DNA from: a virus | Taxonomy: Duplodnaviria; Caudoviricetes | Direction: 5' to 3' (one strand) | Virus record (IMG/VR): IMGVR_UViG_3300023119_000004 | Length of the DNA: 64,000 nucleotides | Shown: piece by piece, positions 1,821 through 64,000 of the stretch | How positions within the stretch are numbered: the first letter of the stretch is position 1 | How the letters are laid out: the number at the start of each line of letters is the position of its first letter | Notes under the pieces: model-generated | The model's input: only the letters and a program-made list of their open reading frames with translations | Databases searched by the model: none | What the model was told of the DNA's origin: nothing | Program-made: the position numbers and the translations under genes

Positions 1821-2144
1821 CTAAAGTCCTATTGATTCCCCACAACCGCAACTTGATGTTGAAGCAGGATTTGTAATGTTGAAGTAAGATCCAAATAATT
1901 CTTTTTTGTAATCAACTGTTGATCCTATCAAATACATAATACTTGTACTATCTATAGCAAACTTGCCATTTTCTAGATCAATTACTTCATCGTTATCTTC
2001 TAGCGTGTCCTCTAATGACCAATCATACATGAATCCTGCACAGCCACCACCTTTTAAGGATAGTTTTACGGCTGGTTTTTGATGCTCTTTAAGCATACTG
2101 TTTAGATGTTCTTTTGCAGAATCAGTTAATGTTACTACTGTCAT
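1821..2144 (-). CDS. iscA: A-type Fe-S carrier (IscA/ErpA/HesB family)
   Basis: GGGCAG and SSCGCGES motifs, 107 aa. Confidence 0.92.
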   Translation of the reverse strand: MTVVTLTDSAKEHLNSMLKEHQKPAVKLSLKGGGCAGFMYDWSLEDTLEDNDEVIDLENGKFAIDSTSIMYLIGSTVDYKKELFGSYFNITNPASTSSCGCGESIGL

Positions 2145-41974: not shown

Positions 41975-42296
41975 TTAAAAAGTGCAACTTTTCTGTTGCT
42001 AGGGAAGTTGCCACCCCCGAGTGATTATGCCGCTAGGGCAAAATCCTCAGAAAGACGAACGTCTTTTTGCTCACCGAAGTTTACAAAAGAAACGTTGTCC
42101 AATGCTTTATCGTTTGCATCTATAACGTTTGCTTGATTTACGGTCATCGCCTACCGGTAACTCCACGTTCTCTAGTACATCAGTCGATCCCGATCACCCC
42201 CTCAAAGCACACTCTGTGAATGTGTTTTAAGTGAATGGTGGAGGTGGGGGGAATTGAACCCCCGTCCTGCCTGTGTTCGATTGGCTTCATCGTTAC
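41975..42296 (-). ncRNA. ssrA: Circularly permuted two-piece tmRNA
   Basis: Acceptor piece first (T-arm GGGGG-TTCAATT-CCCCC, CACCTCC-A-CCA ending 42236), 34-nt spacer, then coding piece starting GGGGGTG at 42201. G3:U70 Ala determinant; tag ANDKALDNVSFVNFGEQKDVRLSEDFALAA* at 42117-42025; terminator hairpin near 41975-42010. Confidence 0.92.
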
Positions 42297-42303
42297 AATA
42301 CTT

Positions 42304-42332
42304 ATTTAACTACATTTTAACGCACTTGTCAA
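42304..42332 (-). promoter_or_regulatory. tmRNA promoter TTGACA-N17-TTAAAT (overlaps TAAATA)
   Basis: Hexamer spacing. Confidence 0.6.
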
Positions 42333-42426
42333 CCGATATGACTTCATTAAGTGCTACTTTTTTAAATTTTGGATAAGTAAAATATATTTCAAACCATAAT
42401 TCTAACAATGCGAAAGGATTAATGTT

Positions 42427-60538: not shown

Positions 60539-61321
60539 ATGGGTATTTCTGCATTTAATTTTAAAGAGCGTAGTCTTTTATTTGCTAGACTGGCGCAAAT
60601 AGCATATTCTAATATAGATGTTGCTAAGAAACAAGCAAAGAAGTTAGGGTTTACTACAGTAGAGTTTTACGAAAAAGACGGAGCACAAGCATATCGCTTT
60701 ATGAATAAAGAGGATCTTGTTATTGCTTGTAGAGGAACAGAACCAACAGAGTTTAACGATATTAAAGCAGATGCAAATGCCCTTCCTGTTATTGCTGAAA
60801 CTATTTCAAGAGTACACAGAGGATTTAAAGCAGAAGTAGATGAACTATGGCCAATGGTGCTAGAAGATTTACAACGTAAAGCCAATGACAAGAAAAAGAT
60901 TTGGTTCTGTGGACACTCACTTGGAGCGGCAATGGCTACTATTATGTCAAGTCGTTGCCACTTATACCCAGACGTAGAACCTGTGCAGGAACTTTACACA
61001 TACGGATCACCAAGAGTAGGCTGGCCTGGATATGTAAAGAGTCTTGGTGTAACACACCATCGTTGGGTTAACAATAACGACATTGTAACAAGAGTTCCAC
61101 TTGCTATTATGGGTTACAAGCATCACGGTGAACAACACTATCTAAATGCATACGGCAATGTTCGTAAACCTACAGGGTGGCAACTTGTTAAAGATCGATT
61201 CCGTGGAATGTGGATGGGGTTAAAGCAAGGCAAGATTGATAACTTTTCAGATCACAGTATGGTAAACTATTGTAACTATCTTGAAATGTACGTTTCAGGA
61301 AAAGAAAACAGTCAAAGTTAA
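60539..61321 (+). CDS. Class 3 lipase (alpha/beta hydrolase)
   Basis: ACRGTE, VHRGF, GHSLG, YGSPRVG, NDIVTRVP, DHS; AATAAATA at 60509-60516. Confidence 0.92.
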   Translation: MGISAFNFKERSLLFARLAQIAYSNIDVAKKQAKKLGFTTVEFYEKDGAQAYRFMNKEDLVIACRGTEPTEFNDIKADANALPVIAETISRVHRGFKAEVDELWPMVLEDLQRKANDKKKIWFCGHSLGAAMATIMSSRCHLYPDVEPVQELYTYGSPRVGWPGYVKSLGVTHHRWVNNNDIVTRVPLAIMGYKHHGEQHYLNAYGNVRKPTGWQLVKDRFRGMWMGLKQGKIDNFSDHSMVNYCNYLEMYVSGKENSQS

Positions 61322-62055
61322 TCTTTACGAATACGTTTATTATATTCAACTGCTTCTTTTAAAATAGACAGGTCAACATCATCACGTTGGCCTGTTTTTA
61401 TGAGTGCATTTATATCTTTAGGAAAACAATGTCCACCAAAGCCACGTTCTTCTGTGATGAAACTATGACTATCTCCTATACGTTCGTCCATTGTTGTATA
61501 GTGTGCTACAGCGTCATATTCGATGTCTAATGCATCACATAGATCATACATCTGATTAAAGAAACTAACCTTTAGTGCAAGGAAACTATTGCGAACATAC
61601 TTAGCAAGTATAAGTTCTCTAGGTTCTGCAATTTCGATGCCTACTCCAAACACATTTCCCCAGAAGCAGGTACTGGTACCACCGATTAACATTAGATCCA
61701 TTTTTGCTAGATCTTCTACTGCTGTTTTTGCCCTAAGAAACTCTGGAGAGAAGTTTAACATACGATTAGGAAATGTGTCTACCAACATATCCCAACCTTC
61801 TACCGAGATTGTGCTTTTGATTAGAATAGGTACATCAGGAGATGATTCAATTACTTCGTAAACATTTTCCATTTCACAACTGCCATCAGGTCTTTCAGGC
61901 GTTGAAACACAAATAATAACTGCATCTGTGTCTTGCGGAATTGGTTTATTGTATTCTGGCCAAGCAGGATCTACAATAGTAATGTCATGCTTGTCTTTTA
62001 ATACTTCTCGATGTGCTTTGCCTACAAAGCCATACCCTGCAATAGTAATTTTCAT
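61318..62055 (-). CDS. ugd: UDP-glucose/GDP-mannose dehydrogenase, lacking C-terminal domain
   Basis: GYGFVG, IKST, SPEFLR, KYVRNSFLA, GFGGHCFPKD; 245 aa. Confidence 0.8.
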   Translation of the reverse strand: MKITIAGYGFVGKAHREVLKDKHDITIVDPAWPEYNKPIPQDTDAVIICVSTPERPDGSCEMENVYEVIESSPDVPILIKSTISVEGWDMLVDTFPNRMLNFSPEFLRAKTAVEDLAKMDLMLIGGTSTCFWGNVFGVGIEIAEPRELILAKYVRNSFLALKVSFFNQMYDLCDALDIEYDAVAHYTTMDERIGDSHSFITEERGFGGHCFPKDINALIKTGQRDDVDLSILKEAVEYNKRIRKD

Positions 62056-62063
62056 AACTGTAG

Positions 62064-62444
62064 TTATTTTGCTTTGCTTTGTAAGTCTGCGATTGCGGCT
62101 TTTATGGCATCCTCTGCCAATACTGAGCAGTGAATCTTAACTGGCGGTAAAGCCAATTCTTCAGCGATGTCAGTGTTTTTAATTTGCTGTGCTTCTTCAA
62201 GCGTTCTACCTTTAACCCATTCGGTAAGTAGACTACTTGATGCAATGGCCGACCCACAACCGTATGTTTTAAATTTCGCATCACTAATCACTCCATCTTC
62301 GCCTACTTGTATCTGTAGACGCATAACATCTCCACAAGCAGGTGCTCCTACCATTCCTGTTCCTACGTTTTCTTTCTTGGGATCAAAACTACCTACGTTG
62401 CGAGGATTCTCATAATGATCCATTACCTTGTCGCTGTATGCCAT
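62064..62444 (-). CDS. iscU: Fe-S scaffold IscU
   Basis: APACGDVM, YGCGSAIASSS, LPPVKIHCSVLAEDA. Confidence 0.96.
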   Translation of the reverse strand: MAYSDKVMDHYENPRNVGSFDPKKENVGTGMVGAPACGDVMRLQIQVGEDGVISDAKFKTYGCGSAIASSSLLTEWVKGRTLEEAQQIKNTDIAEELALPPVKIHCSVLAEDAIKAAIADLQSKAK

Positions 62445-62694
62445 CTTTCTCTCCTATTTCACAATATTTTTCTTGCTGGGTAAAGAAGTCTTCTTCTTCC
62501 CAGTCGGGTGCTTGTCTAAACTGTAAGGGATTGCCAGTGCGTTTTGAATACGCTCCACTGTATTTAACAACAATTTGATCATCTTCATATAGTATTTCCT
62601 CTGCGTAGGCCGGGTGTAATGCAAACGTGTTCAGGACAAACGCATATATCAATACTGCAATCAGTACGCCTACTTTTTCTTTGATGTTACCCAT
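62410..62694 (-). CDS. Hypothetical secreted protein
   Basis: Signal-like N-terminus ..HPAYA; 3' end overlaps iscU. Confidence 0.45.
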   Translation of the reverse strand: MGNIKEKVGVLIAVLIYAFVLNTFALHPAYAEEILYEDDQIVVKYSGAYSKRTGNPLQFRQAPDWEEEDFFTQQEKYCEIGEKDGIQRQGNGSL

Positions 62695-62810
62695 TTGTGA
62701 CTGCACTCTGGTGAACAGAATAATTTGCTTCGATCGGGTGTGTGATAGATTAGACTAAGAAACCTTTTGTTGCACGTTGCACAAATAAAAATTGCACTTA
62801 CACTAGACAT
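62670..62810 (-). CDS. Small TRASH/YHS-like metal-binding protein (46 aa)
   Basis: ICATCNK...LFCSPECS; TAAATG-adjacent to upstream ORF. Confidence 0.55.
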   Translation of the reverse strand: MSSVSAIFICATCNKRFLSLIYHTPDRSKLFCSPECSHKWVTSKKK

Positions 62811-62978
62811 TTACTTTTCCGGTGCAAGTTGCCAACATTCTAAATATTCTCCTGTTGGCTGAAGATGAGGTTGTAGTTCTATTTGCTTCACCAAACACTC
62901 CTGATGTGTATCATAAGTTCCTATCAACTTTATTATGGGCACATCTCCTACAAGTAGGAAGAATATGAGCCCATACAT
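62811..62978 (-). CDS. Small hypothetical protein (55 aa)
   Basis: MYGLIFFLLVGDVPIIKLIGTYDTHQEC...ECW; TAATG-coupled. Confidence 0.55.
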   Translation of the reverse strand: MYGLIFFLLVGDVPIIKLIGTYDTHQECLVKQIELQPHLQPTGEYLECWQLAPEK

Positions 62979-63148
62979 TATTCAACTATACGCAAATGAT
63001 TTCTTTTCTCTATTACGTGTTCTTGATATGCTAAACATATCATTCTTGTGTTAGTGAGACTCCTTCCATACATTTGACCAAACCAAACCTTGTTAGTCAT
63101 AGGAAGTTTGTCCCACCAAGTAAATGCTCTTTTTTGAATAGTATTCAA
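62978..63148 (-). CDS. Small hypothetical protein (56 aa, TTG start)
   Basis: MNTIQKRAFTWWDKLPMTNKVW...; starts right after the dsrA stop. Confidence 0.5.
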   Translation of the reverse strand: MNTIQKRAFTWWDKLPMTNKVWFGQMYGRSLTNTRMICLAYQEHVIEKRNHLRIVE

Positions 63149-64000
63149 TTATACAGCCTCTTTCTCTGCTTTGTTCTCAAACCATTTGGTTGCTTCTTCA
63201 TCCCAACGGTCCATACGAACATAAGACATATAACGAGGTGAGTTAACCATATTAGGATCAACGTCAAGTCCAATGCCTTCGAGGAAATTAACGATACCAA
63301 TACGCTCAATCATCTCTCCTGTACGCTCGTGTTCCAATGCGTTCTCAGCAAAGAAGTCAATCATCTCGCCTGCTAGTTCCTCTATGTATTCATAGTCCTC
63401 AGCAGTTTCTACTTTTAGGAATGGAACAACAACTGTTCCAAACAAGTCTCCAATCTTAAGTGTACGTTTGCCCCCTACACATATTGTTACGCCTTTGTCG
63501 TCTCCTGGCGCAAGTATTGGAGCATCTGTTAGTTCTTCAATGTACTTGTGAGTAAGTGGAGAAGTAACATTCAAGCAATGCATACACTTGACACAATTTG
63601 AATTGTCGATGGTAAGTTCACTTGTATTAGTATCCAATCGCATTGCGTTAGTAGGACAACGGCTAGTGATGTTGTCGATAACATAGTCTACCCCTTTATC
63701 CTCAACCATTTTCTTCCATGCTGTTTGGTTGATTTTTATGTCGTCCCTCCATGTGCCTATCGTACTCATATCCGAACGTTCTATTGAGTTCATACAGTCG
63801 TTAGCACAACCTGACACTTTAAACTTAAACTTGTAAGGAAGTGCTGGTCTATGCATATCGTCTAGGAAGGCATTAACCAAAGTTCTAAGTATTGCTTGTT
63901 CATTAGCGTTTGACATTTCGCATCGTGCCGCTCCCACACAAGACATTCCAGTTCGTACAGCAGGACCAGCACCGCCCAAATCAAAACCGTAGTCGTTAAG
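63149..64000 (-). CDS. dsrA: Dissimilatory sulfite reductase alpha subunit, oxidative (reverse) type; 5' part outside window
   Basis: GGAGPAVRT; CX5C (CVGAARC) and CX3C (SGCANDC) siroheme/4Fe-4S motif; HRPALPYKFKFK; ferredoxin CPT/CVKCMHC; GGKRTLKIGD; EHERTGEMIERIG. Confidence 0.96.
   Translation of the reverse strand, partial: LNDYGFDLGGAGPAVRTGMSCVGAARCEMSNANEQAILRTLVNAFLDDMHRPALPYKFKFKVSGCANDCMNSIERSDMSTIGTWRDDIKINQTAWKKMVEDKGVDYVIDNITSRCPTNAMRLDTNTSELTIDNSNCVKCMHCLNVTSPLTHKYIEELTDAPILAPGDDKGVTICVGGKRTLKIGDLFGTVVVPFLKVETAEDYEYIEELAGEMIDFFAENALEHERTGEMIERIGIVNFLEGIGLDVDPNMVNSPRYMSYVRMDRWDEEATKWFENKAEKEAV

What the first reader, a model, noticed from the sequence alone, without database searches (positions are those of the whole stretch)
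63149..64000. Orphan oxidative-type dsrA as a phage auxiliary metabolic gene, not followed by dsrB
Seen: intact siroheme-[4Fe-4S] and ferredoxin Cys motifs. Downstream are three tiny coupled ORFs and iscU rather than dsrB. Established: cellular dsrA is almost always followed by dsrB, and phage rdsrA/dsrC AMGs were described from SUP05 (Gammaproteobacteria) phages. Inference: the phage subunit assembles with host DsrB to sustain sulfur oxidation during infection.
Basis: partly seen in the sequence, partly recalled or inferred. Interest (0 to 1): 0.72.

Follow-up and report, generated by a model that had tools for sequence, protein, structure and literature searches.

The report
Phage sulfur-oxidation gene dsrA, no dsrB
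A large uncultured salt-marsh phage carries a working-looking copy of the bacterial sulfur-oxidation gene dsrA without its partner dsrB, next to an iron-sulfur assembly gene; this is real, but phages of this kind, and the puzzle of the missing dsrB, are already published.

Summary
Window 63149-64000 (- strand) encodes the last 283 residues of an oxidative-type DsrA and runs off the window end. All cofactor cysteines and substrate motifs in that part are intact. No dsrB, dsrC or tusA lies anywhere in the 64 kb. Downstream come four (not three) small conserved ORFs and then iscU.

The window is a T4-like marine myophage, and the junction is not a chimera. Independent assemblies repeat the order dsrA, small ORFs, iscU, and longer contigs place it between phage genes. 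Relatives 99-100% identical over this part have a whole 435-436 aa gene.

In a tree, the gene sits in a phage-only clade nested among DsrA of the SUP05 group of sulfur-oxidising Gammaproteobacteria. The nearest cellular sequence is 90% identical. dN/dS is 0.04-0.15. The predicted DsrB-contact surface is at least as conserved as the rest of the protein. A complex model with a host DsrB passes, but this is a textbook pair.

Anantharaman 2014 (cited from memory and via Kieft) and Kieft 2021 (PMC8190135) describe phage rdsrA/dsrC. Kieft 2021 notes that dsrB is absent from phages, lists NifU/IscA genes in them, and catalogues dsrA contigs from coastal salt-marsh metagenomes. The scan had already noted unlinked dsrA on other DNA. 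Interest is low.

The parts
63149..64000 (-). dsrA, C-terminal 283 codons plus stop. It encodes the reverse (oxidative-type) dissimilatory sulfite reductase alpha subunit, and the gene continues beyond the window end.
   Evidence: TIGR02064 positions 140-402/402, 325.5 bits; PF01077. It is 99.6% identical to full-length P0001, which passes the TIGR02064 cut-off. The motifs are intact. It falls in a phage-only clade within SUP05-group DsrA. dN/dS is 0.04-0.15.
62978..63148 (-). orf56, a small Trp-rich protein of unknown function. Its TTG start directly abuts the dsrA stop.
   Evidence: It is conserved after dsrA in L019, L022, L027 and L029 (75-100% identity) and in L002 and L032 (48%). It also lies near iscU without dsrA in L120 and L121. 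No Pfam or PHROG family matches.
62811..62978 (-). orf55, a small protein with a hydrophobic N-terminus and two conserved Cys. Its function is unknown.
   Evidence: It is conserved in L019, L022 and L027 (95-98% identity) and in L001, L014, L025 and L028 (44-47%), directly after dsrA. No family matches.
62670..62810 (-). orf46, a small protein with a CxxC...CxxC pattern that suggests a zinc ribbon.
   Evidence: It is conserved in L019, L022, L027, L029 and L124 (80-100% identity) and weakly in L002, L032 and L120. It has weak PHROG matches to the zinc-finger part of HNH endonucleases, E 4e-4.
62410..62706 (-). orf98, a small protein with a hydrophobic N-terminal segment. It overlaps orf46 and the start of iscU.
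   Evidence: It is conserved in L022 (89%), L019 (70%), L124 (83%), L027 (100%) and L032 (55%). The called gene is 88 aa in L113, L114 and L115. No family matches.
62064..62444 (-). iscU, the Fe-S cluster assembly scaffold.
   Evidence: TIGR01999 225.6 bits (cut-off 192.4); PF01592; phrog_8429 NifU-like AMG. In most phage loci with enough DNA downstream of dsrA, iscU lies within 3 kb of it.
1824..2138 (-). An A-type Fe-S carrier (IscA/ErpA-like). It lies 60 kb away but belongs to the phage's Fe-S assembly set.
   Evidence: TIGR00049 99.6 bits (cut-off 58.8). It is 29% identical to the IscA next to dsrC/iscU in L032.

Best explanation
This is a phage auxiliary metabolic gene of the known rdsrA kind. 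A large T4-like marine (salt-marsh) myophage acquired dsrA, without dsrB, from a sulfur-oxidising gammaproteobacterium of the SUP05 group. The gene sits in a variable island that already held iscU and small phage ORFs, and it is kept as a functional protein.

Shown: the gene is on phage DNA; its cofactor and substrate motifs are intact; it is under strong purifying selection within phage lineages; no dsrB is present in this window or in any related phage locus examined.

Inferred: during infection the phage-made alpha subunit pairs with DsrB made by the host, forming extra or replacement rDsrAB. Phage IscU and the A-type carrier help load its two [4Fe-4S] clusters. This keeps stored-sulfur oxidation, and so energy supply, running for phage production.

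The host is most likely a SUP05-group bacterium, but this is the least secure step.
For: Phage context:
- The window carries tail fibre and baseplate genes, RNR and tRNAs.
- Related contigs of 64.9, 216.7 and 346.7 kb carry dsrA among genes typical of phages (many small unannotated ORFs, DUF6267, Phage_DsbA, DUF932) and no cellular operon.
- The order dsrA, orf56, orf55, orf46, orf98, iscU recurs in L019, L022 and L027, and partly in L029, L115 and L124. These come from different samples and assemblers.

Identity and integrity:
- TIGR02064 and PF01077 match.
- All Cys ligands, KxKxK and HER align to 3mm5_A.
- Relatives 98-100% identical over this part are 435-436 aa.

Origin:
- In the ML tree the window lies in a phage-only group of 8 (SH-aLRT 87). 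The 9-row clade that adds cellular L033 has support 97, and the whole sits inside SUP05-group DsrA.
- The phage/cell label needs at least 4 changes on the tree.
- The cellular loci read dsrABEFHCMKL.

dsrB:
- 78 of 80 cellular loci have dsrB within 600 bp after dsrA. None of the phage loci has one, and none is in the window.

Selection:
- Against L029 the fragment is 99.6% identical in protein but only 93.4% in DNA (dN/dS 0.044). Values are 0.04-0.15 against other phage copies.

Partner surface:
- The 138 predicted DsrB-contact residues differ less (6.5-12%) than the rest (11-25%) in phage-to-host comparisons, as they do host-to-host.
- None of the 5 clade-specific positions lies on that surface.

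Complex model, host DsrB (L039) with phage DsrA:
- Score 0.92; best of 3 controls 0.00.
- The mark was reached by 58 of 80 solved complexes and by 2 of 110 mismatched pairs. These counts hold only roughly here, because my own alignments were used.
- The runs agree in at least 93% of contacts, and the partner's pLDDT is at least 86.
- DsrAB complexes are solved, so the pass may come from likeness.

Literature:
- The same reading is published (PMC8190135).
Against: - The N-terminal 153 codons are outside the window, so a defect in this particular copy cannot be excluded.
- No experiment has shown that a phage DsrA binds a host DsrB or raises sulfur oxidation.
- The complex model is a textbook pair and could pass from memory.
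- Host assignment rests on dsrA alone. IscU (82-84%) and DnaK (about 66%) identities to SUP05-group genomes do not discriminate.
- The phage carries an alpha-type two-piece tmRNA. Five SUP05-group genomes have only the one-piece form.
- Presence in metatranscriptome runs does not prove transcription.
Confidence: 0.8

Rival explanations
1. This is an assembly artefact. The last kilobase of the window would be a cellular SUP05-type fragment joined wrongly to a phage contig, so no phage carries this dsrA.
For: GC is slightly higher in 62001-64000 (0.405) than the window mean of 0.37. Many assemblies break inside dsrA: L001, L019, L022, L025, L026, L114 and L115. Summed contig depth over dsrA is higher than over the flanks in the DNA runs.
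Against: The dsrA-to-orf56/orf55 junction is reproduced in independent assemblies from several samples: L002, L014, L019, L022, L027, L029 and L032. L028 (64.9 kb contig) and L113 (346.7 kb contig) have phage-type genes on both sides of a whole dsrA. A cellular fragment would carry dsrB right after dsrA, and here it does not. The phage copies form their own clades. The breaks and the extra depth fit several co-occurring phage variants that share the gene.
Confidence: 0.02
2. This is a decaying or truncated passenger gene. dsrA would have been picked up by accident and be non-functional in this phage, for example broken in the part outside the window.
For: The start of the gene is not in the window. 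dsrB is missing, and the alpha subunit alone is not known to be active.
Against: dN/dS is 0.04-0.15 across phage copies that have diverged to dS 0.3-1.0. All catalytic and cofactor residues in the window are intact. Close relatives are full length. The gene has been kept in at least four phage DsrA lineages.
Confidence: 0.05
3. The gene is functional but does not act through host DsrB of a SUP05-group host. Either the phage infects another sulfur oxidiser (for example an alphaproteobacterium) and forms a cross-lineage hybrid enzyme, or DsrA acts without DsrB, as an alpha-only assembly or as a siroheme/Fe-S binding protein.
For: The phage has an alpha-type permuted tmRNA (RF04321 104 bits, RF01849 74 bits), which five SUP05-group genomes lack. 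Published marine T4-like phages with such tmRNAs infect SAR11 or OM43 (PMC9004378). An earlier scan note (e1-5320220) raised the same host doubt.
Against: The gammaproteobacterial OM43 phage Melnitz also carries an alpha-type tmRNA, so tmRNA type does not fix the host. DsrA is 85-90% identical to SUP05-group proteins and nested among them. Such a recent, repeated transfer is most simply explained by infection of that group. The predicted DsrB surface is conserved.
Confidence: 0.12

Closest known systems
rdsrA/rdsrC auxiliary metabolic genes of SUP05 phages. Source: Anantharaman et al. 2014, Science, cited from my own knowledge and via PMC8190135. GenBank records: Lau218 podophage KJ183191-3 and NC_024329.
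   Same: A phage-borne oxidative-type dsrA derived from SUP05-group bacteria, with no dsrB. tblastn gives 83% identity over the whole fragment to the Lau218 gene, which is annotated rdsrA. Related Lau Basin contigs also have iscU beside dsrA.
   Different: The phage backbone differs: a giant T4-like myophage rather than a 39 kb podophage. The habitat is a salt marsh rather than a hydrothermal plume. The DsrA lineage also differs: Lau218 (L013) lies in another phage clade of the tree.
'Sulfur phages' catalogue of Kieft et al. 2021 (Nat Commun 12:3503, PMC8190135)
   Same: The paper describes dsrA and dsrC/tusE on Myoviridae, Siphoviridae and Podoviridae contigs. It checks the same DsrA motifs (KxKxK, HeR, CxgxxxC, CxxdC) and finds purifying selection. 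It states that dsrB was not found on phages and lists NifU, IscA, GrxD and TusA as shared Fe-S genes. Its supplement lists a dsrA contig from Groves Creek salt marsh, IMG 3300018418, the same metagenome as relative L002.
   Different: This exact genome was not matched to an entry of that catalogue. IMG ids 3300026085 and 3300020207, which hold the closest relatives L001 and L022/L026, are absent from its supplement.
Cellular rDsrAB of SUP05-group bacteria (dsrABEFHCMKL operon, e.g. L030, L034, L039)
   Same: The alpha subunit is 85-90% identical and has all cofactor ligands.
   Different: In cells dsrB follows within 30-100 bp, then dsrEFHC. On the phage, small phage ORFs and iscU follow.
Unlinked extra dsrA copies in cellular genomes. 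Source: earlier scan note e1-1397745, which names Thiobacillus denitrificans. I did not check this myself.
   Same: A dsrA standing apart from dsrB.
   Different: Those copies are chromosomal, in genomes that also hold a complete dsr operon. Here the gene is on a virus.

Membership tests
DsrA (NCBIfam TIGR02064, dissimilatory-type sulfite reductase alpha) | Whole-protein HMM score above the curated cut-off (392.85 bits) | tested here: inconclusive
   The window fragment scores 325.5 bits over model positions 140-402. It falls below the cut-off only because the first third is off-window. The 99.6% identical full-length relative P0001 scores 490.7 bits.
DsrA (NCBIfam TIGR02064, dissimilatory-type sulfite reductase alpha) | Siroheme-[4Fe-4S] cysteines C-X5-C ... 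C-X3-C | tested here: met
   CVGAARC and CANDC in the window translation align to the same motifs of 3mm5_A.
DsrA (NCBIfam TIGR02064, dissimilatory-type sulfite reductase alpha) | Ferredoxin-domain [4Fe-4S] cysteines (CP ... C-X2-C-X2-C) | tested here: met
   CPTNA and CVKCMHC align to CPTGA and CVRCMHC of 3mm5_A.
DsrA (NCBIfam TIGR02064, dissimilatory-type sulfite reductase alpha) | Substrate-binding basic residues (KxKxK, HER, and the N-terminal Arg residues) | tested here: met
   KFKFK and HER are present in the window. These are the motifs listed in PMC8190135. The N-terminal Arg residues lie outside the window and were not examined, in this copy or in P0001.
Oxidative (reverse) type DsrA of sulfur oxidisers | Phylogenetic placement among DsrA of organisms whose operon has dsrEFH and dsrL | tested here: met
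   The fragment is nested in the SUP05-group clade. The cellular loci of that clade read dsrABEFHCMKL. Reductive-type outgroups were not in the tree. The closest solved (reductive) DsrA matches only at E 1.5e-87.
Phage sulfur AMG (rdsrA of 'sulfur phages') | Encoded on a phage genome, not a cellular or chimeric contig | tested here: met
   Phage structural and replication genes are in the window. The synteny is repeated in independent assemblies, and long contigs place dsrA among phage-type genes.
Phage sulfur AMG (rdsrA of 'sulfur phages') | No dsrB on the phage | tested here: met
   tblastn with a host DsrB finds nothing in the 64 kb apart from the paralogous dsrA itself. None of the phage loci has dsrB after dsrA, against 78 of 80 cellular loci. 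The rest of the phage genome could not be searched, because no genome is held.
Phage sulfur AMG (rdsrA of 'sulfur phages') | Retained under purifying selection | tested here: met
   Nei-Gojobori dN/dS is 0.04-0.15 against seven phage copies with unsaturated dS.
Phage sulfur AMG (rdsrA of 'sulfur phages') | Expressed during infection and raising host sulfur oxidation | not testable with these tools
   The stretch is held by 6 salt-marsh metatranscriptome runs. Only contigs were available, and DNA carry-over cannot be excluded.
IscU (NCBIfam TIGR01999) | HMM score above the cut-off of 192.4 bits | tested here: met
   225.6 bits over model positions 1-123/124.

The most novel reading that the evidence does not exclude
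The phage does not infect a SUP05-group bacterium but another marine sulfur oxidiser. Its backbone and two-piece tmRNA resemble phages of SAR11 and OM43-type hosts. In that case a gammaproteobacterial DsrA would have to work with a distantly related DsrB, or without any DsrB. The recurrent dsrA-next-to-iscU arrangement would then mark a self-sufficient 'enzyme plus cofactor-loading' cassette that moves between unrelated phages.
Probability: 0.08. Interest if true: 0.6.

Novelty: already known. Interest (0 to 1): 0.2.

Why it matters
Phage copies of dsrA are thought to keep sulfur oxidation, and so energy supply, running in infected cells. They can make up a large share of the dsrA genes in an environment, so they matter for sulfur and carbon budgets.

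This window adds one more well-preserved example, from a giant T4-like salt-marsh phage. It also adds some support for the usual assumption that the phage alpha subunit still fits a host beta subunit. The support is a conserved predicted interface and very low dN/dS.

It does not change the picture. The open question, already stated in the literature, remains experimental: why phages carry only dsrA, and whether the hybrid enzyme forms.

Tried and rejected
- Finding the window's own record to read past base 64000 failed. Megablast against GenBank phages found no match. An exact 40-mer from the window end found nothing in viral contigs or metagenome contigs. No whole genome is held. An identity look-up of IscU returned only a 1.7 kb contig. 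The N-terminal third of this copy therefore stays unseen.
- The small ORFs have no Pfam or PHROG family, apart from a weak zinc-finger match for orf46. I considered that orf56 and orf55 might be dsrA-specific helpers and rejected it. orf56 also lies near iscU in two phage contigs with no dsrA in the 700-800 bp upstream.
- The promoter and terminator scan of 61000-64000 did no better than shuffles: 9 promoter-like sites against a shuffle mean of 8.9, and no terminator. In relatives, a hairpin followed by a T-run and then a TAAATA box lies 30-60 nt before the dsrA start. This is suggestive only.
- Host assignment from other host-like genes did not discriminate. IscU is 82-84% and DnaK about 66% identical to SUP05-group genomes, and DnaK is equally close to enterobacterial DnaK.
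- Read laying could not test coverage. All four runs are kept as short Logan contigs, and no piece spans the stretch. A break near 62-64 kb could therefore be neither shown nor excluded this way. The one contig that reaches dsrA from the small ORFs has only 27 letters in it. Cover in the RNA runs does not show transcription.
- The chimera and pseudogene readings were considered and rejected (see the rival explanations).

Full report
**What is in the sequence**

On the - strand an open frame enters the window at base 64000 and ends at a TAA stop at 63149-63151, giving 283 residues. It matches the NCBIfam equivalog model for DsrA (TIGR02064) over model positions 140-402 of 402, at 325.5 bits, and Pfam PF01077. 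As a fragment it stays under the whole-protein cut-off of 392.85 bits. A 436-residue protein that is 99.6% identical over the shared part (P0001) scores 490.7 bits.

The window part holds all the expected motifs, and they align to the same motifs of the solved Archaeoglobus fulgidus DsrA, 3mm5_A:
- the two siroheme-[4Fe-4S] cysteine pairs, CVGAARC and CANDC
- the ferredoxin-domain cysteines, CPTNA and CVKCMHC
- the substrate motifs KFKFK and HER

The observed motifs are therefore confirmed.

**What follows the gene**

The stop of dsrA abuts the TTG start of a 56-codon ORF. Next come ORFs of 55, 46 and 98 codons that overlap or abut each other, and then iscU at 62064-62444 (TIGR01999, 225.6 bits, cut-off 192.4). 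That is four small ORFs, not three.

All four are conserved as proteins in related contigs. orf56 and orf55 are also found directly after dsrA in more distant phages, at 44-50% identity. They are therefore genes, not noise.

They are not specific to dsrA, however. orf56 lies near iscU in two phage contigs (L120, L121) that have no dsrA in the 700-800 bp upstream. I read this as dsrA having landed in a variable island that already held iscU and small phage genes.

tblastn with DsrB, DsrC, DsrEFH and TusA taken from a SUP05-type operon and from related phages finds none of them in the 64 kb. It does find an A-type Fe-S carrier at 1824-2138 (TIGR00049, 99.6 bits).

**Is it really phage DNA?**

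The window encodes tail-fibre and baseplate proteins, class I ribonucleotide reductase, four tRNAs and a tmRNA, at an even GC of about 0.37. No whole genome is held for it.

Independent assemblies answer it:
- The order dsrA, orf56, orf55, orf46, orf98, iscU, followed in the longer loci by the short UDP-glucose dehydrogenase-like gene, the lipase gene and the DUF6267 gene, recurs in L019, L022 and L027, and partly in L029, L115 and L124.
- Contigs of 64.9 kb (L028), 216.7 kb (L032) and 346.7 kb (L113) carry a whole dsrA among phage-type genes.
- In 78 of 80 cellular loci, dsrB starts within 600 bp after dsrA. In none of the phage loci does it.

Many assemblies break inside dsrA (L001, L019, L022, L025, L026, L114, L115). 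Summed contig depth over dsrA is also higher than over the flanks in two salt-marsh DNA runs. This fits several co-occurring phage variants sharing the gene. The Logan contigs were too short to test coverage properly.

**Where the gene came from**

I built a maximum-likelihood tree of 103 DsrA sequences: 22 from phage loci and 81 from GTDB species genomes or assemblies.
- The window falls in a phage-only group of eight, with L001, L028, L029, L002, L032, L014 and L021 (SH-aLRT 87).
- The nine-row clade formed with cellular L033, which is 90% identical, has support 97.
- The whole lies inside the DsrA of the SUP05 group: Thioglobus, Thiodubiliella, Ruthia and the Bathymodiolus symbionts.
- The phage/cell label needs at least four changes on the tree.
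- The published Lau218 podophage gene (83% identical) lies in a different phage clade.
- The cellular loci of this group read dsrABEFHCMKL, the layout of sulfur oxidisers.

"Oxidative type, SUP05-derived" is therefore supported.

**Is it functional, and with what partner?**

Against L029 the fragment is 99.6% identical in protein but only 93.4% in DNA (dN 0.014, dS 0.32, dN/dS 0.044). Against six other phage copies with unsaturated dS, dN/dS is 0.04-0.15. The protein is thus maintained by selection within phage lineages.

I modelled a host DsrB (from L039, a close cellular relative of the phage clade) with the phage DsrA (P0001), each with its own alignment:
- Score 0.92; best of 3 controls 0.00.
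- The mark was reached by 58 of 80 solved complexes and by 2 of 110 mismatched pairs. These counts hold only roughly here, because my own alignments were used.
- The runs agree in at least 93% of contacts, and the partner's pLDDT is at least 86.

DsrAB complexes are solved (3mm5, 2v4j), so this pass may only reflect likeness.

I then used the 138 predicted contact residues as a mask. Phage-to-host differences are rarer on that surface (6.5-12%) than elsewhere (11-25%), the same pattern as between hosts. None of the five positions private to the window's clade lies on it.

Nothing suggests that the phage protein has drifted away from DsrB. Binding itself remains an inference.

**Host**

Only dsrA points clearly to the SUP05 group. 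IscU (82-84%) and DnaK (about 66%) do not discriminate.

The phage carries a two-piece, alpha-type tmRNA at 41981-42336 (RF04321 104 bits, RF01849 74 bits). Five SUP05-group genomes have only the one-piece form.

Such tmRNAs are known in marine T4-like phages, including Melnitz, a phage of the gammaproteobacterial OM43 clade (PMC9004378). The tmRNA therefore does not exclude a gammaproteobacterial host, but it leaves the host as the weakest link.

**Environment and expression**

At least 18 salt-marsh DNA runs and 6 salt-marsh metatranscriptome runs hold most of the 4 kb stretch. Contigs from two RNA runs cover parts of dsrA. DNA carry-over cannot be excluded, so this is only a hint of expression.

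**Comparison with what is known**

Kieft et al. 2021 (PMC8190135) catalogued 191 "sulfur phages". The paper:
- checked the same DsrA motifs and reported purifying selection
- stated that dsrB was not found and asked why
- listed NifU, IscA, GrxD and TusA as shared Fe-S genes
- lists in its supplement a dsrA contig from Groves Creek salt marsh (IMG 3300018418), the same metagenome as my relative L002

The original description of rdsrA/rdsrC in SUP05 phages is Anantharaman et al. 2014. I cite it from my own knowledge and through Kieft, and did not read it here.

Earlier notes of this scan had also flagged unlinked dsrA on other DNA (e1-1397745). On this genome they flagged the tmRNA (e1-5320216) and the host question (e1-5320220).

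**Verdict**

- The window's DsrA belongs to a phage lineage distinct from Lau218's.
- The gene sits in an iscU island rather than bringing its neighbours with it.
- The predicted DsrB surface is conserved.

Interest: 0.2.

Noticed in passing
window 41981-42336 (-): A two-piece (permuted), alpha-type tmRNA gene sits on the phage (RF04321 104 bits, RF01849 74 bits). ARAGORN predicts a 30-residue tag. Five SUP05-group genomes have only the one-piece tmRNA. Such genes are published for marine T4-like phages (PMC9004378), and another agent of this scan has already followed this one up (e1-5320216).
   Followed up: partly
L006 8626-9468 and 10001-10846; the same in L007 and L011: Some hydrothermal phage contigs carry two tandem full-length dsrA copies, 79% and 83-85% identical to P0001. 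The two copies fall in different clades of the DsrA tree, so they look like two separate acquisitions rather than a duplication.
   Followed up: partly
L028 8627-8923; L113 6178-6468; L032 3349-3672: In two long relatives (L028, 99% identical to the window's DsrA part; L113, 88%), a DsrC-like gene lies 1-1.8 kb upstream of dsrA. It keeps the C-terminal Cys but has Ala in place of the penultimate Cys, so it looks TusE-like. L032 has a true two-Cys DsrC (81% identical to the host's) beside tusA, iscA and iscU.
   Followed up: partly
window 61318-62055 (-): A short UDP-glucose/GDP-mannose dehydrogenase-like gene (245 aa) covers only positions 75-296 of the 413-position model, so it lacks the start of the NAD domain and the C-terminal domain. 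It is nevertheless conserved at 245-247 aa in L019, L022, L113, L114 and L115, so it is probably a functional shortened form.
   Followed up: no
window 62064-64000 compared with L027 and L029: The variants are mosaic. L029 is 99.6% identical in DsrA but only 80% in orf56. L027 is 100% identical from orf56 to iscU but only 93% in DsrA. Together with the contig breaks inside dsrA in many assemblies, this points to recombination among co-occurring phage strains at this island.
   Followed up: no
L030-L085, DsrB versus DsrA: Within the SUP05 group the beta subunit is more conserved than the alpha subunit: 84-100% identity to the L030 DsrB, against 77-90% identity of DsrA to P0001. A conserved beta subunit would make it easier for a foreign alpha subunit to fit many hosts.
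   Followed up: no
window 1824-2138 (-): A second Fe-S assembly gene, an A-type carrier (IscA/ErpA-like, TIGR00049 99.6 bits), lies 60 kb from iscU.
   Followed up: partly
contigs behind P0122, P0124 and P0129; L113: Contigs that carry an IscU identical or 98-99% identical to the window's reach 273-347 kb. This phage lineage is therefore probably a giant T4-like phage, unless those contigs are concatemers.
   Followed up: no
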